Shown one piece after another: positions 10,607 through 46,482 of a DNA stretch of 64,000 nt. This stretch comes from an uncultured Anaerolineales bacterium (lineage in GTDB: Bacteria > Chloroflexota > Anaerolineae > UBA7937 > B3-Chlor). Below the pieces are notes generated by a model that made no database searches, was not told where the DNA came from, and saw nothing but the letters and a program-made list of their open reading frames with translations. A program made the translations under genes and the position numbers. Location: contig CAYGAW010000055.1 in the NCBI GenBank assembly GCA_964347945.1, positions 4,787-68,786 on the forward strand, read 5' to 3'. Positions within the stretch are counted from its first letter, which is position 1. Every line of letters begins with the position of its first letter.

Positions 10607-10696
10607 GGGCTAGGCGAATTCGTGCACTCACATTTCACTTGTGGGCGCCATTGACCTGCAGGACCCAACACCTGGGAAAGAGCGCTGCGCCTGGTC

Positions 10697-10725
10697 TTGT
10701 AACGTGGTCAAGTGTGACGTATAAT
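10697..10725 (+). promoter_or_regulatory. Internal sigma-70-type promoter for mrdA, giving a near-leaderless transcript
   Basis: TTGTAA (10697-10702), a 17-nt spacer, then TATAAT (10720-10725). The ATG at 10736 is only 10 nt after the -10 element and no Shine-Dalgarno sequence lies between them. Confidence 0.5.
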
Positions 10726-10735
10726 CGTATTCGCA

Positions 10736-12688: not shown

Positions 12689-12803
12689 CAGGTACATTCT
12701 GCGCTTCCGATTCGAGGCAACCCCAGCAGGGAGCAAGCGCGGGCAACCGGAGACTTTAGTCCCCGACACACCCATCGGGACCTCTAGAAGCAGGAGAGAG
12801 TGA

Positions 12804-22503: not shown

Positions 22504-23472
22504 CTAGACTGTCTGAAACGATGATTCTTCAAAGAGCCCTGCTATGAATTCCTCAGCATCGAACTCCGCCAAGTCATCTAGTTGCTCCCCCGTGCCTACA
22601 TACTTGATAGGGATCCCCAACTCGGAGGCGATGGCGAACACGATACCTCCTTTGGCGGTGCCATCTAGCTTGGCCAAGAAGATACCATTCACATCCACAG
22701 CCTCCTTGAAGTTCCGTGCTTGAGAGAGAGCATTCTGCCCTGTAGTGGCGTCTAGCACCAATAGGGTCTCCTGCGGCGCCCCCGGAATCCGATTCTTGAT
22801 CACCCGATAGATCTTTGCTAACTCCTGCATAAGGTTGTATTTCGTATGCAGGCGCCCGGCTGTATCCACAATAAGAGTCTCAGCTTTCCGCGCCTGACCA
22901 GCCTGGATCGCATCGTACACCACTGCAGCGGGATCTGCGCCCGGCTGATGAGCTACGACATCGACGCCTAGCCGCTCCCCCCATATCTGCAACTGCTCGG
23001 CGGCTGCCGCCCGAAATGTGTCCGCCGCCGCCAGTAGCACCTTCCGTCCTTGTTGCTGGTGCCAGTGAGCTAGCTTCGCGATACTCGTGGTCTTCCCAGA
23101 CCCGTTCACTCCCACCACCAGAATGATCCACAAGCCGTCTTGCGTGTCGATCGGCGAACTCACCCCCGCCTCGAAGCTGTCCACCAGCTTCTGCCGAAGC
23201 GCGTCCTCCACCAAACTAGCCCTATTCAGCCCCCTGGAGCCAGCTTCATCCCGCACAGCCTGGACAAGATCGATCGTCGTGGTCGCACCCACATCTGCCT
23301 GGATCAGCAGTTCCTCAAGCTCCTCCCACACCTCATCCGTCAGTTCATCCTGTGCGAGAAGCTTCCCGATCCGTCCGAAAAACGAGCGCCGGGTCCGAGT
23401 CAAGCTCTGTTCAATATTCTTTCCTCGTCCGAACACCTTCTCTCCTCTGCTAACTGGATGTCGGCACCACAC
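22504..23472 (-). CDS. ftsY: Signal recognition particle receptor FtsY
   Basis: ILVVGVNGSGKTTSIAKLA, LAAADTFRAAA, DTAGRLH and an SRP-GTPase C-terminal region. Confidence 0.9.
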   Translation of the reverse strand: MWCRHPVSRGEKVFGRGKNIEQSLTRTRRSFFGRIGKLLAQDELTDEVWEELEELLIQADVGATTTIDLVQAVRDEAGSRGLNRASLVEDALRQKLVDSFEAGVSSPIDTQDGLWIILVVGVNGSGKTTSIAKLAHWHQQQGRKVLLAAADTFRAAAAEQLQIWGERLGVDVVAHQPGADPAAVVYDAIQAGQARKAETLIVDTAGRLHTKYNLMQELAKIYRVIKNRIPGAPQETLLVLDATTGQNALSQARNFKEAVDVNGIFLAKLDGTAKGGIVFAIASELGIPIKYVGTGEQLDDLAEFDAEEFIAGLFEESSFQTV

Positions 23473-23587
23473 TCCGACGAATCACACTTCGAATTATACA
23501 AGATGGATTCCCCCCCTGCAACGAGATATGAATGCGCAAAGAAGGGCATTGTGCTACAATTGCACGGCGGAAGCAAAGAGCATCAGA

Positions 23588-24313
23588 ATGACTGAGAATG
23601 AGCAAGCAGTGTCCGTGGATTTGGTGATCCCGGTTTACAATGAGGAACGAGCCCTGGAACCGAGCGTAAGAGCTCTGCGCGCGTTCCTCCAAGAACGCTG
23701 CCCCTATAGGTGGCGCATCGTCATAGCCGACAACGCTTCCGTTGACCGCACTCTGGAGGTGGCCAAGACGCTGTCCTCTCTCTACCCGGAAGTGAGCTAC
23801 CTACACCTGGACCAGAAAGGGCGCGGCCGGGCTTTGCGACGCGCCTGGCTTGATAGCGAAGCTGATATCTTGAGTTACATGGATGTGGACCTGTCAACAG
23901 ATCTTGAGGCGTTTCCGTTGTTGGTCGACGGACTTGCCAAGGAGGGGTACCACATCGCTATTGGCTCACGTCTCAAGCACGGGGCGAGAGTGGAACGGCA
24001 GTTGAAAAGGGAGATCATCTCCCGGTGCTACAATGTGTTGATCAAGCTGATGTTCCGAAACAAATTCTCGGACGCGCAGTGCGGGTTCAAGGCGCTGACC
24101 CGACACGCTGTTCAAGACCTGGTACCGATAGTCAAAGACCAAGGTTGGTTCTTCGATTCGGAGCTGCTCCTTAGGGCTGAGCAGAAGGGATACCAGATCT
24201 ACGAGGTTCCTGTGCGCTGGATCGATGACCCGGACAGTCGGGTTAACGTCTTCCAGACCGCTTGGGGTGACTTCAAGGGACTTGTCAGGGTACGGTTCAC
24301 CTCCATCGAATGA
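23588..24313 (+). CDS. GT2 glycosyltransferase, polyprenol-phosphate sugar synthase-like (DPM1/GtrB/ArnC type)
   Basis: VDLVIPVYNEE, IVIADNASVDRT, a DVD motif (YMDVDLSTD) and SDAQCGFKAL. The ORF-track start at 23087 is an antisense extension over ftsY. ATG 23588 (MTENEQ) fits the family N-terminus. Confidence 0.8.
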   Translation: MTENEQAVSVDLVIPVYNEERALEPSVRALRAFLQERCPYRWRIVIADNASVDRTLEVAKTLSSLYPEVSYLHLDQKGRGRALRRAWLDSEADILSYMDVDLSTDLEAFPLLVDGLAKEGYHIAIGSRLKHGARVERQLKREIISRCYNVLIKLMFRNKFSDAQCGFKALTRHAVQDLVPIVKDQGWFFDSELLLRAEQKGYQIYEVPVRWIDDPDSRVNVFQTAWGDFKGLVRVRFTSIE

Positions 24314-24451
24314 GTTGCCAGAAGAGTAGAGAATGCCTTGGTCAGTGACTTGCCTGAAAACGATGGGGAGTGAGCGATTATCTTCACCCGTCGGTCTCGA
24401 CAGATTCTGCGCCCCTCTACCCCGCAACCGACCCCGTAGCTGGAGCGAGTG

Positions 24452-24736
24452 ATGGTCATCGGCGTATGCACGTTGGTACTAGACATACCTAGCAGCCATT
24501 CGCTGAAGGACAAACGTCGTGTCGTGAAATCGATTCTCGCCAAGGTGAGGAATCAGTACAACGTCTCCATCGCCGAGGTAGAAGCCAACGACTCCTGGCA
24601 ATCGGCCGTGGTGGGCATTGCCTGCGTTTCCAACGATGCGAGTCACGCCCACGGCCTACTCAGCAGAGTAGTCGAGACTATCAGCAACACCAGATTCGAA
24701 GCCCAGGTCGCCGACTACCACATAGAGATACTCTAG
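24452..24736 (+). CDS. DUF503 (YlxP-like) protein
   Basis: MVIGVCTLVLDIPSSHSLKDKRRVVKSILAKVRNQYNVSIAEVEANDSWQSAVVGIA matches the pattern I remember for DUF503. Confidence 0.7.
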   Translation: MVIGVCTLVLDIPSSHSLKDKRRVVKSILAKVRNQYNVSIAEVEANDSWQSAVVGIACVSNDASHAHGLLSRVVETISNTRFEAQVADYHIEIL

Positions 24737-24836
24737 CGCCCGTTCCTCCTACCGCCTGCTGACTCCATCACTTCGCTGTCTTGCGTCGACGTGTGACTCG
24801 TGTGATTATGTAAATGATCCGTCCGTGCTCGGCAGA

Positions 24837-26585
24837 TTATGTCAACCGCCCCCTTCTCACCCGATCAACGATCAAGATGCTTGCTACGAGAAGCAAGCCG
24901 CCTACGGACAGAGCCGAGCCCAGCAGGCGACTGGGAGTGTGACCAAAGCGGATCGCAACGCGATGGTCGCCCGCGGGGACGCGGAGCGTAATCAACCCAT
25001 GAGGCCCCGTAGGATGGATTTCCACTTCTTGATCTTCCACGTAGCCGCGCCAGCCCGGGAAGTAGTAAGTGTAGAACTGCACTTCAGTCTCTGCGGGTGT
25101 GCTGACGAGCACCTCTTCGGAGGCCCCACCATGCCTGATGTTCTCTACCGTCGCCCCTTCCAGCAAGGCCCTGGCTTTGACCAGCGGCTGTCCTGACAGG
25201 TATTGCTGAACCAAGGGAGTGTTGTGAGGTTGCTCCGTCACCCAGGCCGTCATCCCTACCCTGTCCGGGGGATAGAAGGACTCAAAGTCAATGATGGCCA
25301 CTGGCTGCTCTGAGCGAGGAGACGGCGCAGTGTACTCGGGGAGCGTATAGTTGTGACTGGCCAAGATGACCACTAGTAGCAGGACACCTACCCCAGCGCT
25401 CCACGCGAAACGCGGCTGCCGTCGCTCGGCTGGAACAGCGTGCACCGCTGCCCCGCTCAAGAAGGACATTGTGAGTGCAGCCAGGCCGAGCAGCCGCCAC
25501 GGAAACTGGATGAAAGCGGCCAGCGGCAACACCTGCCAAACCGGCAGAGCGACTGGCACCATGGCCAGCACGATAACCAGCGAGGCGGCGAAGAAGAACA
25601 GTACGTGCCCTTTGCCGCTCACTCCTTTCCACAACGAGCAGGTCACCCCCACTATCGCCAACGTGGCAGCCGCGAGCCCCAATTGGAGCGACATCTCATC
25701 GTTCAAGCCCTCGCCGGCATATCCATAGCCCCAGAAAGGCGAAAAGAGCTGCGAAGGATACACAAAGTGCTTGGCGTATCCGAAGCTGCCCTGAGTCCAT
25801 TGACTCTCCACAATGTAGCTCTTCTCGGCCAGCATGGGCACGAGGAAAATCGAGCTCAGCATCAAAGCCAGGGCCGCTGCTGCTATGGAAAGCCCCGTAG
25901 CCCGCAGGAATTCCGCCCAACCAAGCCGGAGCCTCGAGATTAGTAGGAAGCCTACGTAAGGCACCAGCAGAATTGTGAAGATGAGTGCTGTGGCTGCGTG
26001 GGTGAGAAAAAGCGCGGCATACGCCAGGCTTGCCAGGACGAGACGGCGCACGGACCACCGCTCTGCCAGGTCATGGAAGCCCACCAGGATCAAGGGCAAG
26101 AATGCGAAGGCAAACGACTCCACGAAAGCGCTGCGCACGTATACATCCAGCAGGCGATAGGGTATGAACATGTACACAATCGCCGCCAGCACACCTGCGT
26201 CCCCTCCCAGCACCCTCTTGGCATAGGCGTACATGGTCAGCCCAGAGAGGACAAAGCCCAGTATGTAGGTCGCCTTGACAGACGCTGTGAGACTCGCACC
26301 CATCAGGTGAAACACTTCGGCTACATAGTAGGCCAGCGTCGAGTAGATATTGAACAATGGATAACCATACCCGAGCGCAAAATCCACGCCCCATCGAGGA
26401 TAAAGCACGCCATCTCTTATCGCCTGGTCAAACTGGTTCAGGTAGAAAACGCTGTGAGGAGCGTCATGGGCGTTGAGGAAGTAGGGAGGTCCGACAAGGG
26501 GAGCCCAGGCGAAAGTCGACAGGGCCGCGATGAGAACTACGTTCCAACTGAGCCGCTTGCTCAGCCTCTTCCGAAGATCCGTCAT
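24837..26585 (-). CDS. GT-C-like polytopic membrane protein, paralog 1 (family misnamed 6-pyruvoyl-tetrahydropterin-synthase-related)
   Basis: HDAPHSVFYLNQFDQAIRDGVLYPRWGVDFALGYGYPLFNIYSTLAYY, PYRLLDVYVRSAFVESFA, many TM segments, and a C-terminal beta domain plus TM anchor. Confidence 0.7.
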   Translation of the reverse strand: MTDLRKRLSKRLSWNVVLIAALSTFAWAPLVGPPYFLNAHDAPHSVFYLNQFDQAIRDGVLYPRWGVDFALGYGYPLFNIYSTLAYYVAEVFHLMGASLTASVKATYILGFVLSGLTMYAYAKRVLGGDAGVLAAIVYMFIPYRLLDVYVRSAFVESFAFAFLPLILVGFHDLAERWSVRRLVLASLAYAALFLTHAATALIFTILLVPYVGFLLISRLRLGWAEFLRATGLSIAAAALALMLSSIFLVPMLAEKSYIVESQWTQGSFGYAKHFVYPSQLFSPFWGYGYAGEGLNDEMSLQLGLAAATLAIVGVTCSLWKGVSGKGHVLFFFAASLVIVLAMVPVALPVWQVLPLAAFIQFPWRLLGLAALTMSFLSGAAVHAVPAERRQPRFAWSAGVGVLLLVVILASHNYTLPEYTAPSPRSEQPVAIIDFESFYPPDRVGMTAWVTEQPHNTPLVQQYLSGQPLVKARALLEGATVENIRHGGASEEVLVSTPAETEVQFYTYYFPGWRGYVEDQEVEIHPTGPHGLITLRVPAGDHRVAIRFGHTPSRLLGSALSVGGLLLVASILIVDRVRRGRLT

Positions 26586-26619
26586 TCGATTCCAGCAACC
26601 TACTCTGGGAGAGAGAAGT

Positions 26620-28434
26620 CTATCCTCGCGACTTCCTTCGCCAATAGATTTGCCATCCCAAGACAGCGAAGACCGCCAATAGGCTCAGCCAAGACAGCCA
26701 CCTGCTCACCACCCGCACCGGTGTGTCTTCGAACCGCAAGAGGAGATAGTACTCTCCCACCGGCACCCACACCGAGACTCGACCCAGGCTGCCATGGGGC
26801 AACACCTCCAATTGCCTTTCTATCTTGCCTTCCGGCCCTGTCAGCACATAGGCCTGCCAGCCGGGATAGTAGAAGATGTCGAAGATGATCCTCCCCTCCT
26901 CTTCGGCATGCACCCAAAGCTTGTGATAGACGGTGCCTGTATCCCGAAGATCAATCGCCAGACGTCTCCGAGGCTTGGGCAGCGACCCCAGGTCAACCTT
27001 CAGATCGGGAGCTTCACCTTCGATCGTCACGTGCTCTGCAAAAGACGACCATTGAGGCACCTCGTGGGTCCAGGCCACCGAGCCTGTCATCTGGTCGCTA
27101 CTCTCCATGAAACGCATCATTCCGGTCAGGGAAACCGGGCCCTCGGCCGGCTCTATGATCTGAGGCGACAGATAGGAATAGCTGCCGAAGATGACCAGCA
27201 CGATCAAGGCCAAGGTCGCTACGGCGGCTGGGCGCTTGCCATTGCCATCCGATGCCGCCATGACAGAACCTCCCAGGAAGGCGACACACGGCATCACCAG
27301 GGCCAGCAGGCGCCACGGGAACTGTGCGAAGATCACGATGGGCAGCAGCTCCCAGAATGCCACGGAGGCGGCCAACATCAAGAACGTGATGACCACCAAA
27401 GCCGCCTGGAAGAACAACACCATTCGTCTTCGCACCTGGTTCTTGAGCCGTGCCACCGCCGCAATGGAAAGCACCGAAAGGACAAGTGGCACTGCCCCAA
27501 TCTGGAAGGGCAGCTCATCATGCGGCCCCGGTCGGCTCAGACCGTAGCCCCAGAACGGGGAAAAGAACTGGAAGAAGTAGACGAAATCGTCTCGATAGTC
27601 GTAGTAGCCGCCCAGCCACTGGTCCAGCCGCACGTACTTGAATTCCGCGGCCATCGGGAGCCAGAAAACGGCGCTCAAGCCAAACCCGAGGACTAGCGCG
27701 ACAACGGGCATGCTGGCGTTGCGCGCCATGGACTTGCCCATCAACATCCACCATTCCCCTCTCGAAGATGTCGCTTGGCCGGCATCCTGCCACGATTTGG
27801 CGAGCACCAGGAAAACGAGGTAGATGCCCAAGAAGGGCGAGAAGAGAAGCAAGAGCCCGTTGTGCGAGAATACGAGTCCAGCATACGACAGCGCAGCGCC
27901 CAACAAAGCCACGGGACGGGGACTCTCGACAGTCTCGTAGAAACACCATAGGACCAGGGGGAAGAAGACCAGGGCTACCGACTCAGCGAACGCTCCGCGC
28001 ACGTATACGTCAAGTATGTGATAAGGGACATACACATATAGGAGACCTGCTATCAGACCAGCAGTGCGACCCAGTATCCTCCGCACAAAGAGGTACATGG
28101 TCAAGCCGGAAAGCACGAATGCCAGGGCAAACACTACCTTTATGGCCGCGGTGAGATCCAGGCCCAACAGGTGGAACGACTCGGCAAGGTAGAATGCCAG
28201 AGGGCTGTAGATGTTGAACAGAGGGTAGCCGTATCCGAAGGCGATGTCGGGGGACCACCGGGGATAGAAGATGCCGTCGCGGATGGAACGATCGAACTCA
28301 TACAGAAAGTAGACGCTATGCCGTGCGTCATGAGCCCCCCAGAAGAACCCTGGCTGAAACAACGGCGCGATAGCAAAGACTGTGAGCGCCATCACCAAGA
28401 TAATGTTGATGTCGAAACCCTTGACCTTGGTCAA
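26620..28434 (-). CDS. GT-C-like polytopic membrane protein, paralog 2
   Basis: HDARHSVYFLYEFDRSIRDGIFYPRWSPDIAFGYGYPLFNIYSPLAFY and PYHILDVYVRGAFAESVA. It is clearly paralogous to 24837..26585 over its full length. Confidence 0.7.
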   Translation of the reverse strand: MTKVKGFDINIILVMALTVFAIAPLFQPGFFWGAHDARHSVYFLYEFDRSIRDGIFYPRWSPDIAFGYGYPLFNIYSPLAFYLAESFHLLGLDLTAAIKVVFALAFVLSGLTMYLFVRRILGRTAGLIAGLLYVYVPYHILDVYVRGAFAESVALVFFPLVLWCFYETVESPRPVALLGAALSYAGLVFSHNGLLLLFSPFLGIYLVFLVLAKSWQDAGQATSSRGEWWMLMGKSMARNASMPVVALVLGFGLSAVFWLPMAAEFKYVRLDQWLGGYYDYRDDFVYFFQFFSPFWGYGLSRPGPHDELPFQIGAVPLVLSVLSIAAVARLKNQVRRRMVLFFQAALVVITFLMLAASVAFWELLPIVIFAQFPWRLLALVMPCVAFLGGSVMAASDGNGKRPAAVATLALIVLVIFGSYSYLSPQIIEPAEGPVSLTGMMRFMESSDQMTGSVAWTHEVPQWSSFAEHVTIEGEAPDLKVDLGSLPKPRRRLAIDLRDTGTVYHKLWVHAEEEGRIIFDIFYYPGWQAYVLTGPEGKIERQLEVLPHGSLGRVSVWVPVGEYYLLLRFEDTPVRVVSRWLSWLSLLAVFAVLGWQIYWRRKSRG

Positions 28435-28478
28435 TACAGTCCCTCAAACAGGAGCATTGCGTCCACGGCCTCCACAGC

Positions 28479-30053
28479 CTACTCTAGAGTTATGACGGTA
28501 CCGCGAGTGGATACTGGCAGCCTCTCACGGGTGTCTGGATCGTACACGCCAAGCTGGATCCTGTATCCCTTGCGCGGACCCTCAACATCTATCTTCAGTT
28601 GGTGTTCGTCCACCACTATCTCACCCATCTCCCACGAACTTGTGGGCTTCTCACCCTGCGCTGGCATGGCATCGCTCTGTCCCCAAATCGTGCCTTCGGG
28701 GTCGACAACGTGCACGAACACAGTGTAGTCCGTCCCCATCGGTCTTAGCGCCTGCCAATACAGGGTTAGCCGCACTGTCGCTCCGTGAAGCAGAGGACCT
28801 TCCCGCCGATAACTCAGTAGAGTCATTTCATCCCCTACTATTGCCAGCGGCGCCGCACCGACTTCCACGTCCGTGAAATGCGGGGTCAGATAGCTGTAAC
28901 TTGCCAGGACCGTCAACGTCAGCAAGACCGCCTGCCAATGAAACCGACCTAGCTCCCGGGCCAAGCCCACGGCGCCTCCCGAAGCCGCCGCCATACTCAG
29001 ACCGACGAGAGCCAGAAGCTGCCATGGGTATCGCAACAGTAACGAAAGCAGGCTGATCCGCCAGATGAGAGCCGCGGGATGGAGCAGCAGCAGAACCATG
29101 ACGAACGATGTTGTCACGAAAAACCCTACTCGTCTCACCACCGTGGGATCCGCTTCTCCTGCCCCCAGCCAGAGCATGCCAGCGAACAAGGTCAAGCCTG
29201 TGGCCACCAGGCCCACCTGGAGCGGCAATGTGTCGTCCCAGCCCGGCAGACTAGCCCCGTACCCCCAGCTTGCCGACAGCAGCTGGAAAGGATAGACGAA
29301 GTGCTGCCAGAAATCCTCCCCGCTCTGCAAAAGGATTCCGTGTCTCAACGCCATCGGTAGTTGCAGAAGCATGGCAAGACCCAGGCTTGCCGGTAACAGC
29401 AGAAGCGCCTGTCCTCTCGCTCGCCGGGAGGGAGAGAGGACCAAGACGTAGGCGAGCAAGAACAGGACAAACAACAGTGCTAGTCCAAGGTTGGTCAGCG
29501 CCAAAGAAGCATGCAGCAGAATGGCCGCCACACCCCATAGCGCGGCCCTCTGGGACATGAACTTCTCATAGCACAGAAGGATGAAGGGATAGAGCACGAG
29601 AGCCCAGGCCTCGGCAAAGGCACCTCTCACATACACTGTGGCCAGATGATAGGGCAGATACGTGTAGACGACGCCTGCTACCAAGCCTCCTCGAGAACCG
29701 TAAAGTTGCTTTCCCAGCAGGTACATGCCAACACCGGAGGCCACGAAGCTGATGAGATAGACACCCTCGATCGCTTGCACACCTCCGATCCCTAGCCACC
29801 GCAGAAACTCGGCGATGAGGTAGGGGACGGGCCCTTCTCGCGTGAGCAAATCCCACTCCCCCGCGGCACTAGGCAGCCAACCCCAATTGCCCCAAAGATT
29901 GCGCTCCAGGTCATAAAGATCGAAGACGGGCAGGAAACCGGAGTGGGATTGATGGAAGCCGGGGCGGGTCAAGGGAGCGAAGGCGAAGACGCTAAGGAGG
30001 GCTACCAATACGAGGTTGACGTCCAGCCGTATTCGAAACTCTGACCACTTCAT
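28479..30053 (-). CDS. GT-C-like polytopic membrane protein, paralog 3, with a C-terminal lectin-like repeat
   Basis: It shares LPYHLATVYVRGAFAEAWAL with paralogs 1 and 2. Its C-terminus (about 28485-28840) reads MTLLSYRREGPLLHGATVRLTLYWQALRPMGTDYTVFVHVVDPEGTIWGQSDAMPAQGEKPTSSWEMGEIVVDEH...GYRIQLGVY. This is the same repeat seen three times in 7397..10606. Confidence 0.7.
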   Translation of the reverse strand: MKWSEFRIRLDVNLVLVALLSVFAFAPLTRPGFHQSHSGFLPVFDLYDLERNLWGNWGWLPSAAGEWDLLTREGPVPYLIAEFLRWLGIGGVQAIEGVYLISFVASGVGMYLLGKQLYGSRGGLVAGVVYTYLPYHLATVYVRGAFAEAWALVLYPFILLCYEKFMSQRAALWGVAAILLHASLALTNLGLALLFVLFLLAYVLVLSPSRRARGQALLLLPASLGLAMLLQLPMALRHGILLQSGEDFWQHFVYPFQLLSASWGYGASLPGWDDTLPLQVGLVATGLTLFAGMLWLGAGEADPTVVRRVGFFVTTSFVMVLLLLHPAALIWRISLLSLLLRYPWQLLALVGLSMAAASGGAVGLARELGRFHWQAVLLTLTVLASYSYLTPHFTDVEVGAAPLAIVGDEMTLLSYRREGPLLHGATVRLTLYWQALRPMGTDYTVFVHVVDPEGTIWGQSDAMPAQGEKPTSSWEMGEIVVDEHQLKIDVEGPRKGYRIQLGVYDPDTRERLPVSTRGTVITLE

Positions 30054-30134
30054 CTACCAGCGGATCCCTCTACCAACCGAACGACGGTCCGCACCCTTCT
30101 GTTGCCACTCTCCTCATGATGGTGCAGTAGACAC

Positions 30135-31157
30135 TCACGGAATGATCACGATTTTCAACGACTCAGTCGCCTGAGCCGCCAAGAGTATGGCATCGTCCAC
30201 CTCATCCAGCCCGAACCGATGGGTGACCAGATTCTCTGCGCGAACTCTGCCTCGGCGGATCAACTCCAGAGCGGCCCGCGTGTCGTCAGGTGCGCACGAG
30301 TACGTGGTGACAAGGGTCTTCTCACCGAAGAGCAGGTCATGCACCTCCACTGGCAAGGTGGCTCCTGGTGGCAGTGGCGCGTAGATGAGCACTGTACCGC
30401 CTTTCCCAGCAAGCCTCAAACCCTGCTGCATCACTGAGACGCTACCAGGCGTCACGATCACCAGGTCTGCACCCACGCCCTCGGTCAATTCCAGAACCTG
30501 GCTGTCCCAATCGGGCGCGGTTGCGTTGATAGCGAAATCTGCCTCGAACTCCAGCGCCCGCTGTAGACGGTACTCCACAAGATCCGTGGCTACGATCAAG
30601 CTTGCGCCCCATATCCTGGCCAACTGGGTGAAGAGCAAGCCACTCACCCCAACTCCAATGACCAGGACTGTGTCACCTGTCCGCATGCGGACTCGCTTCA
30701 TGCCTCGGAGGGCACAGGCCGTAGGCTCAATCAGCGTAGCCTCCTCAAACCCGAGATGCGTGGGCAGCTTGAGCACGTCTCGTTCCACATTGATGGCCCT
30801 CACGCGGATGTATTCCGCGAACCCACCAGGGTAGATGCCGTTCTCTCTAAAAGTCGAGCAGGAAGAGTAATTCTCACGCCTGCAGTAGTGACACACAAAG
30901 CAAGGGACGTGATGATGAGCGAAGACCCTGTCGCCAACTGCGAACCCTTCCACCCCGCTCCCCACCCGGGAGACGAAACCCGCTGGCTCGTGCCCCAACA
31001 CCACGGGAGCCTTGCTGTCCGCATACCACTCCATCAGATCGCTCCCGCAGAGGCCACAGGCTTTCATCTGCACCAGCATCTCTCCACGGCCGATCTCAGG
31101 TATCGGCATGTCCTCCAGTCGAATATCTTCGCGATTGTAGTACCTCGCTACTCTCAT
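30135..31157 (-). CDS. Zn-dependent MDR dehydrogenase (polyol/threonine dehydrogenase-like)
   Basis: CGLCGSDL, GHEPAG, a structural-zinc Cys cluster (CFVCHYCRRENYSSC) and a GVGVSG Rossmann motif. Confidence 0.8.
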   Translation of the reverse strand: MRVARYYNREDIRLEDMPIPEIGRGEMLVQMKACGLCGSDLMEWYADSKAPVVLGHEPAGFVSRVGSGVEGFAVGDRVFAHHHVPCFVCHYCRRENYSSCSTFRENGIYPGGFAEYIRVRAINVERDVLKLPTHLGFEEATLIEPTACALRGMKRVRMRTGDTVLVIGVGVSGLLFTQLARIWGASLIVATDLVEYRLQRALEFEADFAINATAPDWDSQVLELTEGVGADLVIVTPGSVSVMQQGLRLAGKGGTVLIYAPLPPGATLPVEVHDLLFGEKTLVTTYSCAPDDTRAALELIRRGRVRAENLVTHRFGLDEVDDAILLAAQATESLKIVIIP

Positions 31158-31175
31158 GCCTGTGTCCGAACCATC

Positions 31176-32198
31176 CTAGGGGATGATTGCCATCTTGATC
31201 GCCTGGCCTGCCGCGACCATCTGCAAGGCCCGCTCCACATCCCTGAGGGACAGCTGTCCGGTTATCAGAGGCTCTGCCTTGACCACTCCAAGACGCAGTA
31301 GCTCAAGCGCCTTCCGAACCGTGTGGGGCGTGTGATGAAATACTCCCTTGATGGTCAACTCACCGTAGTGCAGTTGGCCCGTGTCCAACGGTATCTGTGT
31401 CCCAGCAGGACAACCGCCGAACATGACCACGCTTCCACCCTTGCGAACTAGTCGCAGGGCCATTTGCCAGACCTCCGGTGCTCCAGCAGTCTCGATGACT
31501 ACGTCAGCTCCTCGGCCATCGGTCAAATCCCCCACTACCGCGAATGGGTCCTCGGTCTCCGGATTCACTACTCTGGTTGCACCCAATTCACGGGCCAGCT
31601 GCAATCTCTTCTCGTTGAGGTCAATCACCACGATCTGCTCCGACCCTCTGTGCACCGCCAGCTGAAGGTGCATCAGACCGATGGGTCCGCCTCCTCCGGC
31701 GATCACCACGCTGTCGCCAGGAGAGATGCCAGCAGCCTCATTCCCCAGGACGACGCAGGCTAGCGGTTCGACAAGGGCCGCCTCCTCGTACGATAGACCA
31801 GGCGGAATCTCATAGACGTTCCGCTCCACGATGCGTGCAGGCACTCTGATGTACTCGGCGAAAGCACCCCAGTTGAACAAGATGTCGTCACAGAGATTCT
31901 GCTTCCCACGCTTGCAGAAGAAGCAGCTGTTGCAAGGAGCAGAGTTGGCAGCCACCACTCTCGCACCCTCGGCGAATCCCGTCACCCCATCCCCGACCTC
32001 GCATACATCACCTGAGAACTCATGGCCAAAAAGCATCGGTGGCTCCATCAGGTGATGCCCTCTGCGGTAGGTCTTGACGTCTGTCCCGCAGGTCAAGGCT
32101 GCCTTGACCCTCACCAGCAACTCGCCTGGATCAATCGCGGGCAGGTCCACCTCCTGATAGCTCAGCCGGCCTGGTCCTAAGTATACTGCCGCTTTCAC
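31176..32198 (-). CDS. Zn-dependent MDR dehydrogenase (sorbitol/iditol dehydrogenase-like)
   Basis: CGTDVKTY, GHEFSG, CNSCFFCKRGKQNLC and GGGGPIG. I place the start at GTG 32198-32196, which overlaps the cupin TGA as GTGA. The upstream 21 codons in the ORF track overlap the cupin gene. Confidence 0.8.
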   Translation of the reverse strand: MKAAVYLGPGRLSYQEVDLPAIDPGELLVRVKAALTCGTDVKTYRRGHHLMEPPMLFGHEFSGDVCEVGDGVTGFAEGARVVAANSAPCNSCFFCKRGKQNLCDDILFNWGAFAEYIRVPARIVERNVYEIPPGLSYEEAALVEPLACVVLGNEAAGISPGDSVVIAGGGGPIGLMHLQLAVHRGSEQIVVIDLNEKRLQLARELGATRVVNPETEDPFAVVGDLTDGRGADVVIETAGAPEVWQMALRLVRKGGSVVMFGGCPAGTQIPLDTGQLHYGELTIKGVFHHTPHTVRKALELLRLGVVKAEPLITGQLSLRDVERALQMVAAGQAIKMAIIP

Positions 32199-32578
32199 TC
32201 GTGAGTGTCTCTCTTCGACGGGATCACGCACAGGAAACCGAACGGTTCCTGCCCCAGGCACTTGAACCGATGCTCTTCTCGCGGCGAGACATAGATCATG
32301 TCGCCGAAGGAGACGTCCACCGAGTCGTCTCCCACAAGGACTCGTCCCTTGCCCCTGAGGACCATGACCCCATGATCGTGCTCGTGGCTATCCAGAGGAG
32401 TCTCGCCGCCTGGCTCAATCTCGAAGTATCGCATCGCGAAATGGCCTGCTCCTTCCTGGGGTCCGATCAGCCATCGCACAGAGACTGCGCGCACCCCTGG
32501 CGAGTCGTAGGCTTCCGCCTCAACGTCCTCCCACTCGAAATCGCCCTTTTCGCCGGTGAATCTGTGTAGAGAGCCCAT
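32195..32578 (-). CDS. Cupin-fold protein
   Basis: GETPLDSHEHDHGVMVLRGKGRVLVGD...GDMIYVSPREEHRFKCLG is a cupin_2 two-motif pattern. ATG 32578 has AGGAGG 6 nt upstream. Confidence 0.75.
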   Translation of the reverse strand: MGSLHRFTGEKGDFEWEDVEAEAYDSPGVRAVSVRWLIGPQEGAGHFAMRYFEIEPGGETPLDSHEHDHGVMVLRGKGRVLVGDDSVDVSFGDMIYVSPREEHRFKCLGQEPFGFLCVIPSKRDTHE

Positions 32579-32605
32579 AGAGCTCCTCCTCACGTTGCAC
32601 AGCAG

Positions 32606-32614
32606 ATTCTAGCA
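32606..32614 (-). promoter_or_regulatory. Extended -10 promoter for the cupin/dehydrogenase/GT-C transcription unit
   Basis: The reverse strand reads TGcTAGAAT about 28 nt upstream of ATG 32578. Confidence 0.4.
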
Positions 32615-32960
32615 TACCTGGGGCGAAAAAAGGTAGGGGCGCGAAGAGCGACAAGAGCGCGGCACAAAGAGAAAGCCAACAGACATGAACCGCCTGTTGG
32701 CTAGAGCCTGCGTCCCCCATCTTGCCGTGTGCTATCATTGTTTTGAACCTGCCGAGGCAGGTGGGTGCCTACCTGTCGGGTTTGCCCTCTCGGACAGCGC
32801 CTCCAGAGATCGGCTCCCTGTATATAGGTATTGGCTCAAAACGCTGATCACAGCATCACGAGCATGACGGGAGACGCATTTCTATTATAGCACATTATCA
32901 AAACCAGTGCAAGCTGGGCCTCAGAAGAGAAATCCTCTAGCCCAGCGACGGACAATCTGT

Positions 32961-32966
32961 TATAAT
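32961..32966 (+). promoter_or_regulatory. -10 box giving a near-leaderless GNAT transcript
   Basis: TATAAT at 32961-32966 lies 9 nt before ATG 32976, with no Shine-Dalgarno sequence between them. Confidence 0.4.
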
Positions 32967-32975
32967 GCGCCCACG

Positions 32976-34007
32976 ATGTCTGTACACCCGAACGTAAGAG
33001 TCGATGTCTGTCCCGGCCCCCGGGCCTTTGTCGATTTGGAGGAGGAATGGAACGACCTCCTCAGGCGGAGCACCATGAACACCATCTTCCTAACCTGGGA
33101 GTGGCAGGGAATCTGGTGGGACTGCTTCGGTGAGGACGCCCAACTGACCATACTGACCGTCCGAGAGAAAGGAGAGCTAATCGGCCTCGCTCCGCTCTAC
33201 GCCCGGCGTTCCAACGACGGCCAGAGGACACTGCGTCTTGTTGGCGGAGTTGAGGTGTCCGACTACCTGGACATCATCGCCAGCACCGGGAAGGAGCAAG
33301 TGGTCTACACGGCGCTGTGGCACTTCCTGGTCGACGAGCATCGTTATCCGTGGGATGTGTTGGACCTGCATAACGTGCCCGCTACCTCACCGACTTTGAC
33401 AGTGATGAGAGACCTCGTAGGGGACACACCTGGGTTTGAGATTAGCGCGGTGGTCGAGGATGTGTGCCCCGTTCTGGACCTGCCCTCCACCTGGGGCGAA
33501 TACTTGTCACTCCTGAACAAGAAGCAGCGTCACGAAGTGCGCCGCAAGATTCGCAAAGCTAATAGAGAGGCGGAAGTCACCTGGTACTACGCACTGAACG
33601 AGACATCACTCGAAGCTGAGGTGGACGATTTCATCCAGCTTCACCAAAAGAGCGATAAGCAGAAGATGGCTTTCATGGATCAGAGAATGCAGCCCTTCTT
33701 CCATGCCATAGCTCGAGCTGCCTTGGAGCAAGGATGGTTGAAACTGGCGTTTCTGGTTGTCAATAGTGCAAAGGTGGCCTCTGTGTTCTGTTTCGACTAT
33801 GACGATGCCATTCTCGTCTACAATTCCGGCTACGATCCGGCCTTGCACTCTTCCTTGAGTACGGGTATTGTTCTTCTCGCGTACTGCATTGAAGATGCGA
33901 TAGAGAACGGGCGCAAGGCGTTCGACTTCCTCCGTGGCGAGGAGGAGTACAAGTGTCGCTTCGGCGGCGCGCGAACCGAGATACACAATGTGAGAATCAG
34001 TAGATGA
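32976..34007 (+). CDS. CelD/BcsL-like (FemAB-fold) GNAT acyltransferase
   Basis: TIFLTWEWQGIWWDCFG and a C-terminal FDFLRGEEEYKCRFG are the pattern I remember for the cellulose-biosynthesis CelD-like acetyltransferase family. Confidence 0.65.
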   Translation: MSVHPNVRVDVCPGPRAFVDLEEEWNDLLRRSTMNTIFLTWEWQGIWWDCFGEDAQLTILTVREKGELIGLAPLYARRSNDGQRTLRLVGGVEVSDYLDIIASTGKEQVVYTALWHFLVDEHRYPWDVLDLHNVPATSPTLTVMRDLVGDTPGFEISAVVEDVCPVLDLPSTWGEYLSLLNKKQRHEVRRKIRKANREAEVTWYYALNETSLEAEVDDFIQLHQKSDKQKMAFMDQRMQPFFHAIARAALEQGWLKLAFLVVNSAKVASVFCFDYDDAILVYNSGYDPALHSSLSTGIVLLAYCIEDAIENGRKAFDFLRGEEEYKCRFGGARTEIHNVRISR

Positions 34008-34017
34008 GGCGAAGACA

Positions 34018-35325
34018 GTGTATCGCTTAGCTATGCTGAGTGTTCACACCTGCCCGCTGGCAACGCTGGGTGGCAAGGAGACTGGCGGGATGAACGTCTA
34101 TGTTCGAGACCTCAGTCGCGAACTGGGGCGTCGAGGCTTCCACGTGGACGTTTTCACCCGGTCGCAGAACCCAGATATGCCACAGATTGGCGATTTGGGA
34201 CCCAACGCCAGGGTGATACATCTCAAGGCCGGCCCTGAGGCCCCGTACGACAAGAACCTGGTCTATTCGCATCTGCCGGAGTTCGCCAGCAACCTGAGGG
34301 AGTTCGTAGCGGGAGAGAACATCGCGTATGACTTGATCCACAGCCACTACTGGCTCTCCGGAGTCGTGGCTCGACAACTGCGGGCTGAGTGGAACACGCC
34401 GGTGTTGCAGATGTTCCACACCCTGGGAAAGCTGAAGAACCAGGTAGCCAGGAGCACAGGACAGCGCGAGACGCCCCATCGTGTGGAAACAGAGCGCCAG
34501 ATAATGAGTTGTGCCGATCGACTCATTGCCGCCAATCCCCTTGAGAAGGCTCAAATGATCTGGCTCTACGGGGCAGACCCAGCCAAGATTGATGTGATCC
34601 CGTGTGGAGTCGACATGACTCTTTTCCATCGTATCCCACGAGACGAAGCCGAGGCGTACATAGAAATGCCCGAGCATCATAGAATGGTGCTCTTCGTGGG
34701 CCGGATCGAACCCCTGAAGGGGATAGACGTGTTGATGGAAGCCATGGCCCTCGTTCTGGAGCAAATGGATGAGCTGCGCGACGAAGTCTGCCTGTGCATC
34801 ATTGGCGGTGATCCAGATGGGGGCGTTGACACGGTGAACCAGGAGATGTCTCGCTTGCAGCAGATGCGAGAGCAGCTGGGCATTGACGACGTGGTCACTT
34901 TCCTCGGCAAGAAGGCGCAGGATGCGCTACCCTATCACTATTCCGCTGCCGAGGTATGCGTCGTTCCCTCCCACTACGAGTCCTTCGGAATGGTCGCACT
35001 GGAAGCCATGGCTTGTGGTACGCCGGTTATCGCGTCCAAGGTAGGAGGCCTTACCTTCACCGTAAGAGACGGACAGACCGGCTTCTTGGTGCCCAGTGAT
35101 GATCCGAGGGCCATGGCCGATAGGTTGCGCCTGCTGTTGGCGGATGAGAAACTACGATCGGCCATGGGGCGGCAGGCCATCCAACTGTCTCAAAGGTACA
35201 GCTGGACCGCCGTCGCATCTCAGGTGGTGGCCGCATATCGCAATCTCGTGGCCCAGGCCCGTGCCGAGATATGCTGTAGAGATGGCGATGAGCGAAGCGC
35301 GACACGGGCAAGCTGCTGTGAGTGA
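34018..35325 (+). CDS. GT4 glycosyltransferase, MshA-like
   Basis: LAMLSVHTCPLATLGGKETGGMNVYVRDLSRELGRRGFHVDVFTR and a C-terminal ESFGMVALEAMACGTPVIASKVGG (E-X7-E region). Confidence 0.75.
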   Translation: MYRLAMLSVHTCPLATLGGKETGGMNVYVRDLSRELGRRGFHVDVFTRSQNPDMPQIGDLGPNARVIHLKAGPEAPYDKNLVYSHLPEFASNLREFVAGENIAYDLIHSHYWLSGVVARQLRAEWNTPVLQMFHTLGKLKNQVARSTGQRETPHRVETERQIMSCADRLIAANPLEKAQMIWLYGADPAKIDVIPCGVDMTLFHRIPRDEAEAYIEMPEHHRMVLFVGRIEPLKGIDVLMEAMALVLEQMDELRDEVCLCIIGGDPDGGVDTVNQEMSRLQQMREQLGIDDVVTFLGKKAQDALPYHYSAAEVCVVPSHYESFGMVALEAMACGTPVIASKVGGLTFTVRDGQTGFLVPSDDPRAMADRLRLLLADEKLRSAMGRQAIQLSQRYSWTAVASQVVAAYRNLVAQARAEICCRDGDERSATRASCCE

Positions 35326-46415: not shown

Positions 46416-46482
46416 TGGATTTCTCCTTCAGCCTGACTCAGACTGTGCAACGGCGCGAAAGAGCGCGTCTGCGTCTCTGGGC

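What the first reader, a model, noticed from the sequence alone, without database searches (positions are those of the whole stretch)
23588..30053. Polyprenol-phosphate-sugar synthase-like GT2 plus three tandem GT-C paralogs: a candidate O-glycosylation system for the many Pro/Thr-rich linkers
**The genes.** The GT2 at 23588..24313 has the DPM1/GtrB/ArnC-type motifs (PVYNEE, DNASVDRT, DVD, QCGFK). Such enzymes make lipid-linked monosaccharide donors. Converging on it are three back-to-back GT-C-like membrane proteins: 24837..26585, 26620..28434 and 28479..30053, separated by gaps of 34 and 44 nt. They share PY[RH].L.VYVR[SG]AF.E. Two of them also share HDA.HSV..L..FD..IRDG..YPRW......GYGYPLFNIYS.LA.Y.

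**The analogy.** GT2 plus GT-C is the logic of actinobacterial Ppm1/Pmt protein O-mannosylation, whose targets are Pro/Thr-rich linkers.

**Possible targets in this window.** At least five secreted or lipoproteins carry long Thr/Pro-rich or Pro-rich linkers: 39095..40045, 46483..46944, 50745..52472, 52755..54362 and 55822..58452. The signal-less proteins 47022..50150 and 59511..61958 also have Pro-rich linkers.

**Open question.** Triplication suggests different acceptors or sugars. Alternatively the enzymes polymerise a wall glycan.
Basis: inference. Interest (0 to 1): 0.65.

Follow-up and report, generated by a model that had tools for sequence, protein, structure and literature searches.

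The report
Conserved three-gene membrane glycosyltransferase cassette
Three neighbouring genes for membrane sugar-transferring enzymes are real and form an old, fixed-order cassette across filamentous Chloroflexota, but the adjacent donor-making enzyme is only a local neighbour and what the cassette glycosylates (envelope proteins or wall polymers) is unresolved.

Summary
**Observation: confirmed.** All four ORFs, the quoted motifs and the 34 and 44 nt gaps are present. The three membrane proteins are paralogs (33-36% identity). AlphaFold models (pLDDT 84 and 92) match only GT-C glycosyltransferases.

**Interpretation: partly supported.**
- The enzymes are not PMT-family. They belong to PF10131, a GT-C family of unknown function, with weaker YfhO and PMT_2 similarity.
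- The triplication is ancient. The order GT-C3→GT-C2→GT-C1 holds in 40 of 47 informative loci from Anaerolineae, Caldilineae and Ardenticatenales-labelled MAGs.
- GT-C1 and GT-C2 keep an outer-loop His-Asp and other invariant charged residues. GT-C3 has lost them and carries a C-terminal β-sandwich.
- The GT2 is a TM-less, DPM1-like enzyme. It lies beside the triad only in the window's own clade (0 of 42 distant loci). Elsewhere it stays with FtsY/RF2.
- The recurrent partner, absent here, is a zinc-ribbon/TM/PT-linker/LysM protein.

**Acceptor.** Not resolved. I lean slightly towards Ser/Thr-rich linkers over wall glycopolymers.

**Novelty.** New variant of a known kind, of moderate interest.

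The parts
24837..26585 (-). GT-C1: PF10131/YfhO-like GT-C membrane glycosyltransferase, last gene of the triad. Has about 10 or more TM segments, an extracytoplasmic β-sandwich and a C-terminal TM helix. Keeps H40-D41 and the other invariant charged residues.
   Evidence: - PF10131, 62.7 bits.
- Model pLDDT 84, pTM 0.89.
- Foldseek top hits are all GT-C enzymes, with TMq 0.36-0.46 among the E<=0.001 hits.
- Invariant residues.
- TM segments.
26620..28434 (-). GT-C2: middle paralog with the same architecture as GT-C1. Keeps the AHDA.HS loop-1 motif, R64/W65/D68, E254 and R364.
   Evidence: - PMT_2 E 1.5e-8; PF10131 at 25.6 bits.
- 36% identical to GT-C1, E 1e-119.
- Conservation across 51 orthologs.
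28479..30053 (-). GT-C3: first gene of the triad, a degenerate paralog.
- The loop-1 Asp is replaced (S/T/A, never D).
- The R64/W65/D68 loop is deleted.
- PWRLL has become PWQLL.
- It has its own conserved HSGF motif.
- There is no terminal TM helix; the C-terminal β-sandwich spans about residues 400-524.
   Evidence: - Pairwise comparisons.
- Conservation.
- Model pLDDT 92.
- Foldseek: GT-C enzymes for the membrane part; GH2 Ig-like domains, Wzt CBD 6o14 and NPC2/MD-2 for the C-terminal domain.
23588..24313 (+). GT2: TM-less DPM1/ALG5-like GT-A enzyme with DXD at D99-V-D101. A plausible polyprenyl-phosphate hexose synthase. It converges on the triad and is a neighbour by clade-specific synteny, not a conserved partner.
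   Evidence: - PF00535 E 7e-25.
- 5mlz E 2.4e-17 with aligned motifs.
- No TM-like segment.
- Context in other lineages.
- Absent from distant triad loci.
24449..24736 (+). DUF503 gene between the GT2 and GT-C1. Not part of the system; it travels with the GT2 in the close clade.
   Evidence: PF04456 E 6e-32; synteny.
30135..32593 (-). Cupin (32195..32593) plus two Zn-dependent MDR dehydrogenases (31176..32261 and 30135..31157), directly upstream of GT-C3 on the same strand. Possibly co-transcribed. The arrangement is conserved only down to the clade at about 58% identity.
   Evidence: Pfam; NCBIfam sub-threshold hits to Tdh and scyllo-inosose dehydrogenase; synteny; no convincing terminator between these genes and GT-C3.
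32710..32876 (-). 6S RNA gene followed by a 12-bp-stem terminator-like hairpin (32702..32674). Marks the upstream boundary of the minus-strand gene run that ends with GT-C1.
   Evidence: Rfam RF00013, 70 bits; terminator scan.

Best explanation
**What it is.** GT-C3→GT-C2→GT-C1 is an ancient, fixed-order cassette of PF10131/YfhO-like GT-C membrane glycosyltransferases. It is shared by MAGs labelled Anaerolineae, Caldilineae and Ardenticatenales.

**How it most likely works.**
- GT-C1 and GT-C2 are the catalytic enzymes. Each has a positively charged cytoplasmic N-terminus and TM1. An outer loop follows, carrying an invariant His-Asp, further invariant Asp/Arg/Trp, the VYVR..F.E motif, and E254 and R364.
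- By analogy with ArnT, PglB, PMT and YfhO, they take a sugar from a polyprenyl-phosphate-linked donor. They pass it to an acceptor on the outer face of the cytoplasmic membrane (inferred).
- GT-C3 has systematically lost the loop-1 Asp, the RW..D loop and the Arg of PWRLL. It keeps its own HSGF motif and a C-terminal β-sandwich. It most likely acts as an acceptor- or lipid-binding subunit that is non-catalytic or differently catalytic (inferred).

**The GT2.** It is a highly conserved, TM-less DPM1-like enzyme that may supply polyprenyl-phosphate hexose to this and other GT-Cs of the cell. It is not a dedicated operon partner. Its adjacency is a synteny peculiarity of the window's clade.

**Acceptor.** Not established. 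I lean slightly towards Ser/Thr-rich Pro/Thr linkers of envelope proteins. These would include the zinc-ribbon/TM/PT-linker/LysM protein encoded just downstream of GT-C1 in most other lineages.

**Rough confidence.** About 0.8 for the general part (a GT-C envelope glycosylation cassette with an unlinked GT2). About 0.4 for the protein acceptor.
For: **Shown here.**
- Paralogy.
- GT-C fold for GT-C1 and GT-C3 from confident models. The top Foldseek hits are exclusively GT-C enzymes: AglB, STT3, PglB, AftD, EmbA/B/C, Pmt4, ArnT and ALG12.
- Family placement for the GT-C1 ortholog set: PF10131 23/24, PMT_2 16/24, YfhO 13/24 with best E 1.9e-12.
- The full ordered triad is present in 40 of 47 loci with enough upstream DNA, and in 31 of 38 outside the close clade.
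- Residue conservation splits GT-C1/2 from GT-C3.
- The GT2 is absent from 42 distant loci. It is tied to FtsY/RF2 in L086, L089 and L090.
- The GT2 aligns to P. furiosus DPMS across its nucleotide-binding, DXD and acceptor-loop motifs.

**In favour of a protein acceptor.**
- A gene for a Zn-ribbon/TM/LysM protein follows GT-C1 in 24 of 46 distant loci, at gaps of -22 to 192 nt with one exception of 1911 nt. All 31 full-length orthologs keep at least two PT-rich linkers.
- YfhO-type PgtC2 and PgfM1/M2 O-glycosylate Ser/Thr-rich disordered regions of PBP1a, PrsA, LytR and PknB in streptococci (PMC12041528).
- Likely O-glycans on Thr were seen in the archaellin of a Caldilineae member, with no enzyme assigned (PMC12488501).
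- PT linkers sit on wall enzymes in this window.
Against: - There is no direct evidence on the acceptor, the donor or the activity.
- PT-rich linkers occur in many envelope proteins here and in relatives, so their presence in the neighbour gene is weak evidence. That neighbour also has LysM domains, which point to peptidoglycan.
- The LysM partner is not next to the triad in this window's clade, and no full-length ortholog is in the window.
- TM-scores to solved GT-Cs are only 0.36-0.46 among the E<=0.001 hits, which is fold-level similarity. No sequence-profile hit to any solved structure was found.
- GT-C3 keeps semi-conserved acidic residues in the loop-1 helix (D48 71%, E50 51%), so catalysis by GT-C3 is not excluded.
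- Physical association of the three proteins is pure inference from conserved gene order.
- Whether the GT2 acts on a polyprenyl phosphate at all is inferred from similarity of about 32% identity. No NCBIfam equivalog threshold is met.
Confidence: 0.4

Rival explanations
1. The triad builds or decorates a non-protein envelope glycopolymer: a secondary cell-wall polysaccharide, a lipoglycan or a sheath-like layer. This would resemble mycobacterial EmbC/EmbA/EmbB and AftD, or YfhO/GtlB glycosylation of lipoteichoic acid. GT-C3's β-sandwich would serve as a carbohydrate-binding module, and the LysM protein would tether the machine to peptidoglycan.
For: - Three tandem GT-C paralogs in fixed order recall embCAB (established knowledge).
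- AftD gives the lowest-rmsd Foldseek match among the E<=0.001 hits (5.8 Å over 429 columns, TMq 0.44). EmbA/B/C are also hit.
- GT-C3's C-terminal domain resembles the Wzt carbohydrate-binding domain (6o14, TMt 0.53) and GH2 Ig-like domains.
- The conserved partner carries 2-3 LysM domains.
- The window encodes an LCP ligase at 45063..46415.
- YfhO homologs glycosylate teichoic acids in Bacillus and Listeria (as cited in PMC12041528; the primary paper PMC5836110 is listed but was not read).
- The layered envelope of Chloroflexota is thought to contain polysaccharide or protein of unknown origin (PMC13319060).
Against: - No Pfam match to the Emb/Aft families.
- No donor-synthesis, polymer-export or priming genes are conserved next to the triad.
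- The β-sandwich also matches lipid-binding folds (NPC2, MD-2), so a carbohydrate-binding role is not specific.
- LysM partners are found in only about half of the distant loci.
Confidence: 0.35
2. The GT2 and the three GT-Cs form one dedicated Ppm1/Pmt-type protein O-mannosylation locus. Its triplication reflects different sugars or acceptors among the PT-linker proteins encoded nearby.
For: The GT2 is DPM1-like. The GT-C fold is confirmed. The genes are adjacent in the window and its close relatives. PT linkers are present.
Against: - Adjacency is lost in all 42 distant loci, while the triad persists.
- The GT2 is syntenic with FtsY/RF2 rather than with GT-Cs. In one lineage it sits in a Wzy_C-GT2-epimerase operon.
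- The orientation is convergent, with a DUF503 gene in between.
- No PMT (PF02366) membership.
- The third paralog is degenerate.
- The window holds a TMEM260-like GT-C at 7397..10606, whose Pfam family is named after a protein O-mannosyltransferase.
Confidence: 0.1
3. The cassette modifies a lipid or a lipid-linked precursor, in the way ArnT modifies lipid A or other enzymes modify lipid II or membrane glycolipids. Alternatively, some members are structural, lipid-binding pseudo-enzymes with no transferase role.
For: ArnT is among the fold matches. Sources label some homologs 'ArnT-like'. GT-C3 lacks the canonical catalytic residues, and its C-terminal domain resembles lipid-binding β-sandwiches.
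Against: GT-C1 and GT-C2 keep a full set of invariant polar residues typical of active GT-Cs. Chloroflexota lack lipid A (as cited in PMC13319060). No lipid-synthesis genes are conserved alongside.
Confidence: 0.1

Closest known systems
YfhO-family GT-C enzymes with a GtrB/CsbB/PgfS-type GT2. Examples: B. subtilis YfhO and Listeria GtlB acting on lipoteichoic acid; streptococcal PgtC2, PgfM1 and PgfM2 acting on Ser/Thr-rich disordered regions.
   Same: - GT-C fold with a catalytic acid in the first outer loop.
- 13 of 24 GT-C1 orthologs hit PF09586.
- A C-terminal β-sandwich followed by a final TM helix in GT-C1/2; that YfhO proteins share this arrangement is recalled from memory and was not checked here.
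- More than one GT-C can act in one pathway (PgfM1 and PgfM2).
- The acceptors are envelope polymers or Ser/Thr-rich linkers of wall-biogenesis proteins.
   Different: - The window proteins do not reach YfhO in Pfam; their best family is PF10131.
- The GT2 here has no TM helices, whereas GtrB/CsbB-type enzymes are reported to carry C-terminal TM helices (background knowledge, not checked here), and it is not operon-linked.
- No GtrA/GtcA flippase is nearby.
- A fixed triad with a degenerate member and a LysM partner was not found described for YfhO systems in the papers searched.
Mycobacterial embCAB / AftD arabinosyltransferases
   Same: Three tandem GT-C paralogs. Extracytoplasmic accessory β-sandwich domains. 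AftD and Emb are among the best structural matches.
   Different: No sequence-family membership (no PF04602 or PF12250 hits). The proteins here are much smaller, at 524-604 aa against the 1034-1312-residue Emb/AftD chains matched. All Emb proteins are catalytic as far as known, whereas GT-C3 here lacks the loop-1 Asp.
Actinobacterial Ppm1/Pmt (GT39) protein O-mannosylation
   Same: The overall logic: a cytoplasmic GT2 makes a polyprenyl-phosphate sugar, and a GT-C transfers it outside to Ser/Thr in Pro/Thr-rich regions. M. smegmatis Ppm1 and human DPM1 are, from background knowledge, likewise TM-less catalytic subunits.
   Different: No PF02366 match. Only fold-level similarity to Pmt1/2/4 (TMq 0.28-0.42). 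The motif is His-Asp rather than the Asp-Glu recalled for PMTs. Three genes rather than the single pmt gene recalled for actinobacteria. The GT2 is not a conserved neighbour.
Pfam PF10131 (PTPS_related), GT-C clan CL0111
   Same: GT-C1 scores 62.7 bits against a cutoff of 26.4. 23 of 24 GT-C1 orthologs and 50 of 70 GT-C3 orthologs match at E<=1e-3.
   Different: The family has no known function (PMC7801869). GT-C2 falls just below the gathering score and GT-C3 clearly below it.

Membership tests
GT-C fold glycosyltransferase superfamily | Multi-pass membrane fold shared with STT3/PglB/ArnT/PMT/Emb | tested here: met
   GT-C1 model (pLDDT 84) and GT-C3 model (pLDDT 92). Foldseek hits with E<=0.001 are all GT-C enzymes, with TMq 0.32-0.47 across the two searches. 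GT-C2 was not modelled; it is 36% identical to GT-C1.
GT-C fold glycosyltransferase superfamily | Conserved acidic residue in the first extracytoplasmic loop | tested here: met
   - GT-C1 and GT-C2: D41 is conserved at 99% and 98%, just after TM1 and preceded by H40; D58 and D68 are also conserved.
- GT-C3: not met. The equivalent position is S 78%, T 9%, A 9% and never D, and the D68 loop is deleted.
PF10131 PTPS_related (GT-C clan, function unknown) | Score at or above the Pfam gathering threshold (26.4 bits) | tested here: met
   GT-C1 62.7 bits (met). GT-C2 25.6 bits (just below). GT-C3 18.9 bits (below). Orthologs: 23/24 and 50/70 at E<=1e-3.
YfhO family (PF09586) | Pfam match | tested here: inconclusive
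   No hit for the three window proteins at E<=0.1. 13 of 24 GT-C1 orthologs match at E<=1e-3, best 1.9e-12. 0 of 70 GT-C3 orthologs match.
YfhO/GtrC-type three-component glycosylation system | Partner GtrB/CsbB-type GT2 with C-terminal TM helices, plus a GtrA/GtcA flippase | tested here: not met
   The GT2 has no TM-like segment (maximum 19-aa Kyte-Doolittle score 0.79). No small 4-TM ORF other than MreD is in the window. The GT2 is not a conserved neighbour.
PMT / GT39 protein O-mannosyltransferase | PF02366 match or sequence similarity to Pmt1/2/4 or bacterial Pmt | tested here: not met
   No PF02366 hit in the window proteins or in 94 orthologs. phmmer and profile hmmsearch against PDB chains found nothing. 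Foldseek to Pmt4 gives TMq 0.42 and to Pmt1-Pmt2 0.28, which is fold level only.
PMT / GT39 protein O-mannosyltransferase | Transfers mannose from polyprenyl-P-Man to Ser/Thr | not testable with these tools
   Needs a biochemical assay or glycoproteomics.
Emb/Aft arabinosyltransferases | Pfam Arabinose_trans / AftA-type match | tested here: not met
   No such Pfam hit. Only fold-level Foldseek matches, with AftD at TMq 0.44 and Emb at 0.33-0.41.
DPM1/ALG5/GtrB/ArnC-like polyprenyl-phosphate glycosyltransferases (GT2) | GT-A GT2 domain with a DXD motif, and closest relatives that are Pol-P-sugar synthases | tested here: met
   PF00535 E 7e-25. DXD at D99-V-D101. The best solved relatives are P. 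furiosus DPMS (E 2.4e-17, motifs aligned) and ArnC. Some homologs are named 'dolichyl-phosphate beta-glucosyltransferase' by their source.
DPM1/ALG5/GtrB/ArnC-like polyprenyl-phosphate glycosyltransferases (GT2) | Reaches an NCBIfam equivalog threshold, or lipid-phosphate acceptor demonstrated | tested here: not met
   All NCBIfam hits are far below their cutoffs, for example Dol-P-hexose transferase at 53 bits against 375 and PgfS at 51 against 500. The acceptor is not testable here.

The most novel reading that the evidence does not exclude
The triad is a class-spanning Chloroflexota machine. It would consist of two catalytic GT-Cs, a pseudo-GT-C subunit with a binding domain, and often a zinc-ribbon/LysM transmembrane partner. 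It would either be the missing enzyme system that O-glycosylates the abundant Pro/Thr linkers (and perhaps the archaellin) of these bacteria, or build the unexplained outer layers of their envelope. No bacterial GT-C assembly with a conserved degenerate subunit turned up in the literature searched here.
Probability: 0.25. Interest if true: 0.7.

Novelty: new variant of a known kind. Interest (0 to 1): 0.45.

Why it matters
**Why it matters.**
- The envelope of filamentous Chloroflexota is poorly understood. They lack lipid A and BAM genes, yet show layered, sometimes diderm-like walls (PMC13319060).
- No enzyme has been assigned to the O-glycans seen on a Caldilineae archaellin (PMC12488501).
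- A cassette conserved in order across MAGs labelled as three classes is a concrete candidate for either process.
- The cassette has two intact GT-Cs and one degenerate GT-C, and a frequent peptidoglycan-binding, PT-linker partner.
- It also gives a first functional handle on Pfam family PF10131, which has no known function.

**Practical lesson.** The attractive GT2 + GT-C pairing in this window is a synteny accident of one clade. It should not be used to infer the donor or the pathway.

Tried and rejected
- **Sequence searches of GT-C1 and of profiles A2 and A3 against all PDB chains.** No meaningful hit, so only fold comparison links them to known enzymes.
- **NCBIfam on the GT-Cs.** No family matched.
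- **Promoter and terminator scan of 23300..33000.** Counts were at shuffle level. Only the hairpin after the 6S RNA looks real, so operon boundaries remain inferred.
- **Search for a GtrA-like flippase or a second GT2 in the window.** None found.
- **Search for the Zn-ribbon/LysM partner in the window.** Only LysM-domain-level matches to 50147..54362, with no ortholog.
- **First ORF-based count of triads and LysM partners.** It mis-assigned some genes. It was replaced by counts based on tblastn for the triad and GT2 and on ORF clusters for the LysM partner.
- **Functional link to the upstream cupin and two Zn-dehydrogenases, or to the MshA-like GT4 and GNAT.** The dehydrogenases persist only to the clade at about 58% identity. 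The GT4/GNAT pair persists only in the close clade. Both were rejected as core components.
- **Literature searches for PF10131, DUF6541 and 'PTPS-related', and for Chloroflexota O-glycosylation of linkers.** No study of this family was found.

Full report
**1. What is in the sequence**

The four ORFs exist exactly as reported:
- GT2: 23588..24313 (+), 241 aa.
- GT-C1: 24837..26585 (-), 582 aa.
- GT-C2: 26620..28434 (-), 604 aa.
- GT-C3: 28479..30053 (-), 524 aa.

The gaps between the GT-C genes are 34 and 44 nt. The GT2 motifs PVYNEE, DNASVDRT, DVD and QCGFK are at residues 15, 48, 99 and 164. The shared PY[RH].L.VYVR[SG]AF.E motif is in all three membrane proteins. The long AHDA.HS...GYGYPLFNIYS block is in GT-C1 and GT-C2 only.

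The three are clear paralogs: 36% identity (E 1e-119), 33% (1e-47) and 34% (3e-47).

The GT2 and DUF503 converge on the GT-C genes, so they are not co-transcribed with them.

Upstream of GT-C3 on the same strand lie two Zn-dependent dehydrogenases and a cupin (30135..32593). Beyond them is a 6S RNA gene (32710..32876) with a strong hairpin after it.

All source-named homologs are from Anaerolineae or Chloroflexi MAGs, and locus L004, labelled an uncultured Anaerolineales MAG, is 94% identical in GT-C1.

**2. What the proteins are**

*The GT2.*
- It has a PF00535 domain (E 7e-25).
- Its best solved relatives are Pyrococcus furiosus dolichol-phosphate mannose synthase (E 2.4e-17) and ArnC (about 1e-7). 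The nucleotide-binding, DXD (D99-V-D101) and acceptor-loop motifs align.
- It has no TM-like segment. From background knowledge, human DPM1, M. smegmatis Ppm1 and mycobacterial PpgS are likewise TM-less.
- No NCBIfam equivalog threshold is approached. 'Polyprenyl-phosphate hexose synthase' is therefore a well-founded inference, not a demonstration.

*The membrane proteins.*
- GT-C1 matches PF10131 (PTPS_related, 62.7 bits). GT-C2 matches PMT_2 and, just under threshold, PF10131. GT-C3 matches PF10131 only weakly.
- Across the GT-C1 ortholog set the hits are PF10131 23/24, PMT_2 16/24, YfhO 13/24 (best E 1.9e-12), DUF6541 6/24 and PF02366 (true PMT) 0/24.
- For the GT-C3 orthologs the hits are PF10131 50/70, PMT_2 16/70 and STT3 3/70.
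- PF10131 belongs to the GT-C clan and has no known function (PMC7801869). No paper on this family was found.

*Structure.*
- The AlphaFold models are confident: GT-C1 pLDDT 84 and pTM 0.89; GT-C3 pLDDT 92 and pTM 0.90.
- Foldseek against the PDB returns only GT-C enzymes at the top. These are AglB, STT3, PglB, AftD, EmbA/B/C, Pmt4, ArnT and ALG12, at TMq 0.32-0.47.
- That is fold-level similarity. Sequence and profile searches of the PDB find nothing.
- The GT-C fold is therefore shown. Membership of PMT, Emb/Aft or ArnT is not.

**3. The triad is ancient and has a fixed order**

I fetched 80 loci encoding GT-C1 relatives from GTDB species genomes. They carry Anaerolineae, Caldilineae and Ardenticatenia/Ardenticatenales labels, at 40-94% identity.
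- tblastn of the window's proteins shows GT-C3→GT-C2→GT-C1, same strand and same order, in 40 of 47 loci with at least 4.2 kb upstream of GT-C1. Outside the window's own clade the figure is 31 of 38.
- Best-hit classification of each ORF agrees with its position in all 40 full triads. An ordered triad is also seen in loci labelled Caldilineaceae and Ardenticatenales, which indicates that the triplication is old. No tree was built to confirm this.

**4. Two intact enzymes and one degenerate one**

In a 177-sequence alignment, GT-C1 and GT-C2 orthologs keep the following residues, at 88-100% in GT-C1 and 80-98% in GT-C2:
- H40-D41 directly after TM1.
- H44, D58, R64, W65, D68, E90 and K104.
- R151 and E156 (the VYVR..F.E motif).
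- E254, Q262-W263 and R364 (PWRLL).

The N-terminus is Lys/Arg-rich, so loop 1 faces outward. This is the usual position of the GT-C catalytic acid.

GT-C3 orthologs differ systematically:
- Ser, Thr or Ala (never Asp) at the D41 position.
- Leu at H44.
- A deletion removing R64/W65/D68.
- Thr, Val or Ala at D147.
- No conserved E254.
- Gln (100%) in place of R364.

They keep R151/E156 and have their own conserved HSGF motif (at least 90%). They lack the terminal TM helix. They end in a β-sandwich (about residues 400-524) that resembles GH2 Ig-like domains, the Wzt carbohydrate-binding domain (6o14, TMt 0.53) and NPC2/MD-2.

I infer that GT-C3 is a binding or regulatory subunit, or that it uses different chemistry. 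Semi-conserved acids remain in its loop-1 helix (D48 71%, E50 51%), so activity is not excluded.

**5. The GT2 is a neighbour, not a partner**
- The GT2, together with DUF503, FtsY and RF2, is beside the triad only in the close clade, where GT-C1 is at least 66% identical. It is present in 7 of 49 loci with at least 3 kb downstream and in 0 of 42 more distant loci.
- phmmer with the GT2 against every ORF of all loci finds it only in that clade.
- The GT2 itself is very conserved, at 66-94% identity over the best 120 clusters.
- In three other lineages (L086, L089, L090) it remains divergent from FtsY-RF2. MoaC, FabF, RNase III and SMC lie on its other side, and no GT-C is near.
- In a fourth lineage (L084) it sits in a Wzy_C-GT2-epimerase operon.
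- No GtrA-type flippase is in the window.

The GT2 may well feed polyprenyl-phosphate hexose to these and other GT-Cs. Gene context gives no support for a dedicated system.

**6. What does travel with the triad**
- Clustering all ORFs of the loci gives one recurrent partner. It is a 370-465 aa protein encoded on the same strand just after GT-C1, at gaps of -22 to 192 nt with one exception of 1911 nt. It is present in 24 of 46 distant loci with room for it.
- Its architecture is one or two N-terminal zinc ribbons, one TM helix, two or three LysM domains and a conserved C-terminal domain.
- All 31 full-length orthologs keep at least two Pro/Thr-rich linkers.
- It is not beside the triad in the window's clade, and the window holds no ortholog.
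- The cupin and dehydrogenase genes persist only to the clade at about 58% identity.

**7. Acceptor: two live hypotheses**

*For protein O-glycosylation of PT linkers.*
- The conserved neighbour is itself a PT-linker membrane protein.
- YfhO-type PgtC2 and PgfM1/M2, together with a GT2, glycosylate Ser/Thr-rich disordered regions of wall-biogenesis proteins in streptococci (PMC12041528).
- Likely O-glycans on Thr were seen on a Caldilineae archaellin, with no enzyme assigned (PMC12488501).
- The window's PT linkers sit on LysM proteins, an amidase and similar envelope proteins.

*For a wall polymer or lipoglycan.*
- The embCAB-like triad.
- AftD as the lowest-rmsd match among the E<=0.001 hits.
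- The CBM-like domain of GT-C3.
- LysM in the partner.
- An LCP ligase in the window.
- YfhO acting on teichoic acids (as cited in PMC12041528).

Nothing computed here separates the two. I put protein acceptors at about 0.4 and glycopolymers at about 0.35.

**8. Verdict**
The GT2 + GT-C logic is plausible at the level of biochemistry. The locus is not a Ppm1/Pmt-type unit, and the enzymes are not PMTs. The informative feature is a conserved, uncharacterised GT-C triad with a degenerate member.
- This is a new variant of a known kind of system, of moderate interest.

Noticed in passing
window 7397..10606 (+), within 4498..13919: A fourth GT-C: a 1069-aa protein with a PF11028 TMEM260-like/DUF2723 domain (E 2e-39). 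It sits inside the rod-shape operon, in the order mreB, mreC, mreD, [GT-C], PBP2, RodA. Its Pfam family is named after a protein O-mannosyltransferase, unlike the PF10131 triad, and its placement suggests a link to elongasome or wall synthesis. In L084/L085 the mreBCD and PBP2 genes are adjacent without it.
   Followed up: partly
loci L002, L015, L031, L039 and others, directly downstream of GT-C1 (e.g. L015:11776-12981): A conserved partner gene of the triad in other lineages. Its architecture is double zinc ribbon, TM helix, PT-rich linker, 2-3 LysM domains and a conserved C-terminal domain with no Pfam match. All 31 full-length orthologs keep PT-rich linkers.
   Followed up: yes
window 32907..35325 (+): An Acetyltransf_6/FemAB-like GNAT followed by a GT4 that scores 389 bits against the mycothiol MshA model (D-inositol-3-phosphate glycosyltransferase; cutoff 462). 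The pair is conserved in the close clade. Together with the nearby dehydrogenases that resemble scyllo-inosose dehydrogenase or Tdh, this hints at inositol-linked glycoconjugate chemistry.
   Followed up: no
window 32710..32876 (-) and 32674..32702: A 6S RNA gene (Rfam, 70 bits) followed by a hairpin with a 12-bp stem and a T-rich tail. It lies just upstream of the cupin, dehydrogenase and GT-C gene run.
   Followed up: partly
window 45063..58452 (-): A dense run of cell-wall and division genes, many with PT-rich linkers:
- LCP ligase, 45063..46415.
- SpoIID-domain protein, 47022..50150.
- Three LysM proteins, 50147..54362.
- FtsZ, 54608..55807.
- Amidase_2 with a Big_7 domain, 55822..58452.
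   Followed up: partly
L084:5304-9690: In a Chloroflexi MAG the GT2 ortholog (69% identical) lies in an apparent operon between an 894-aa Wzy_C-domain membrane protein and an NAD-dependent sugar epimerase. This is a different candidate partnership for this GT2. The GT2-plus-epimerase pairing recalls the streptococcal PgfS/PgfE pair.
   Followed up: no
L058, L059, L063 (between GT-C2 and GT-C1): In some Caldilinea-, Caldilineaceae- and Anaerolineales-labelled loci, one or two response-regulator receiver genes are inserted between GT-C2 and GT-C1.
   Followed up: no
window 47022..50150 and 59511..61958 (-): Two large signal-less proteins share an N-terminal 'YPRP..DTG.GFH.FPD' start. The second has no Pfam hit, and no P/T/S-rich segment at the threshold used.
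   Followed up: no
L089:769-4349: Near the GT2/FtsY block of another lineage lie an inositol-1-phosphate synthase, two Lip_A_acyltrans genes and a GT4. This looks like a phosphatidylinositol-mannoside-type gene set.
   Followed up: no
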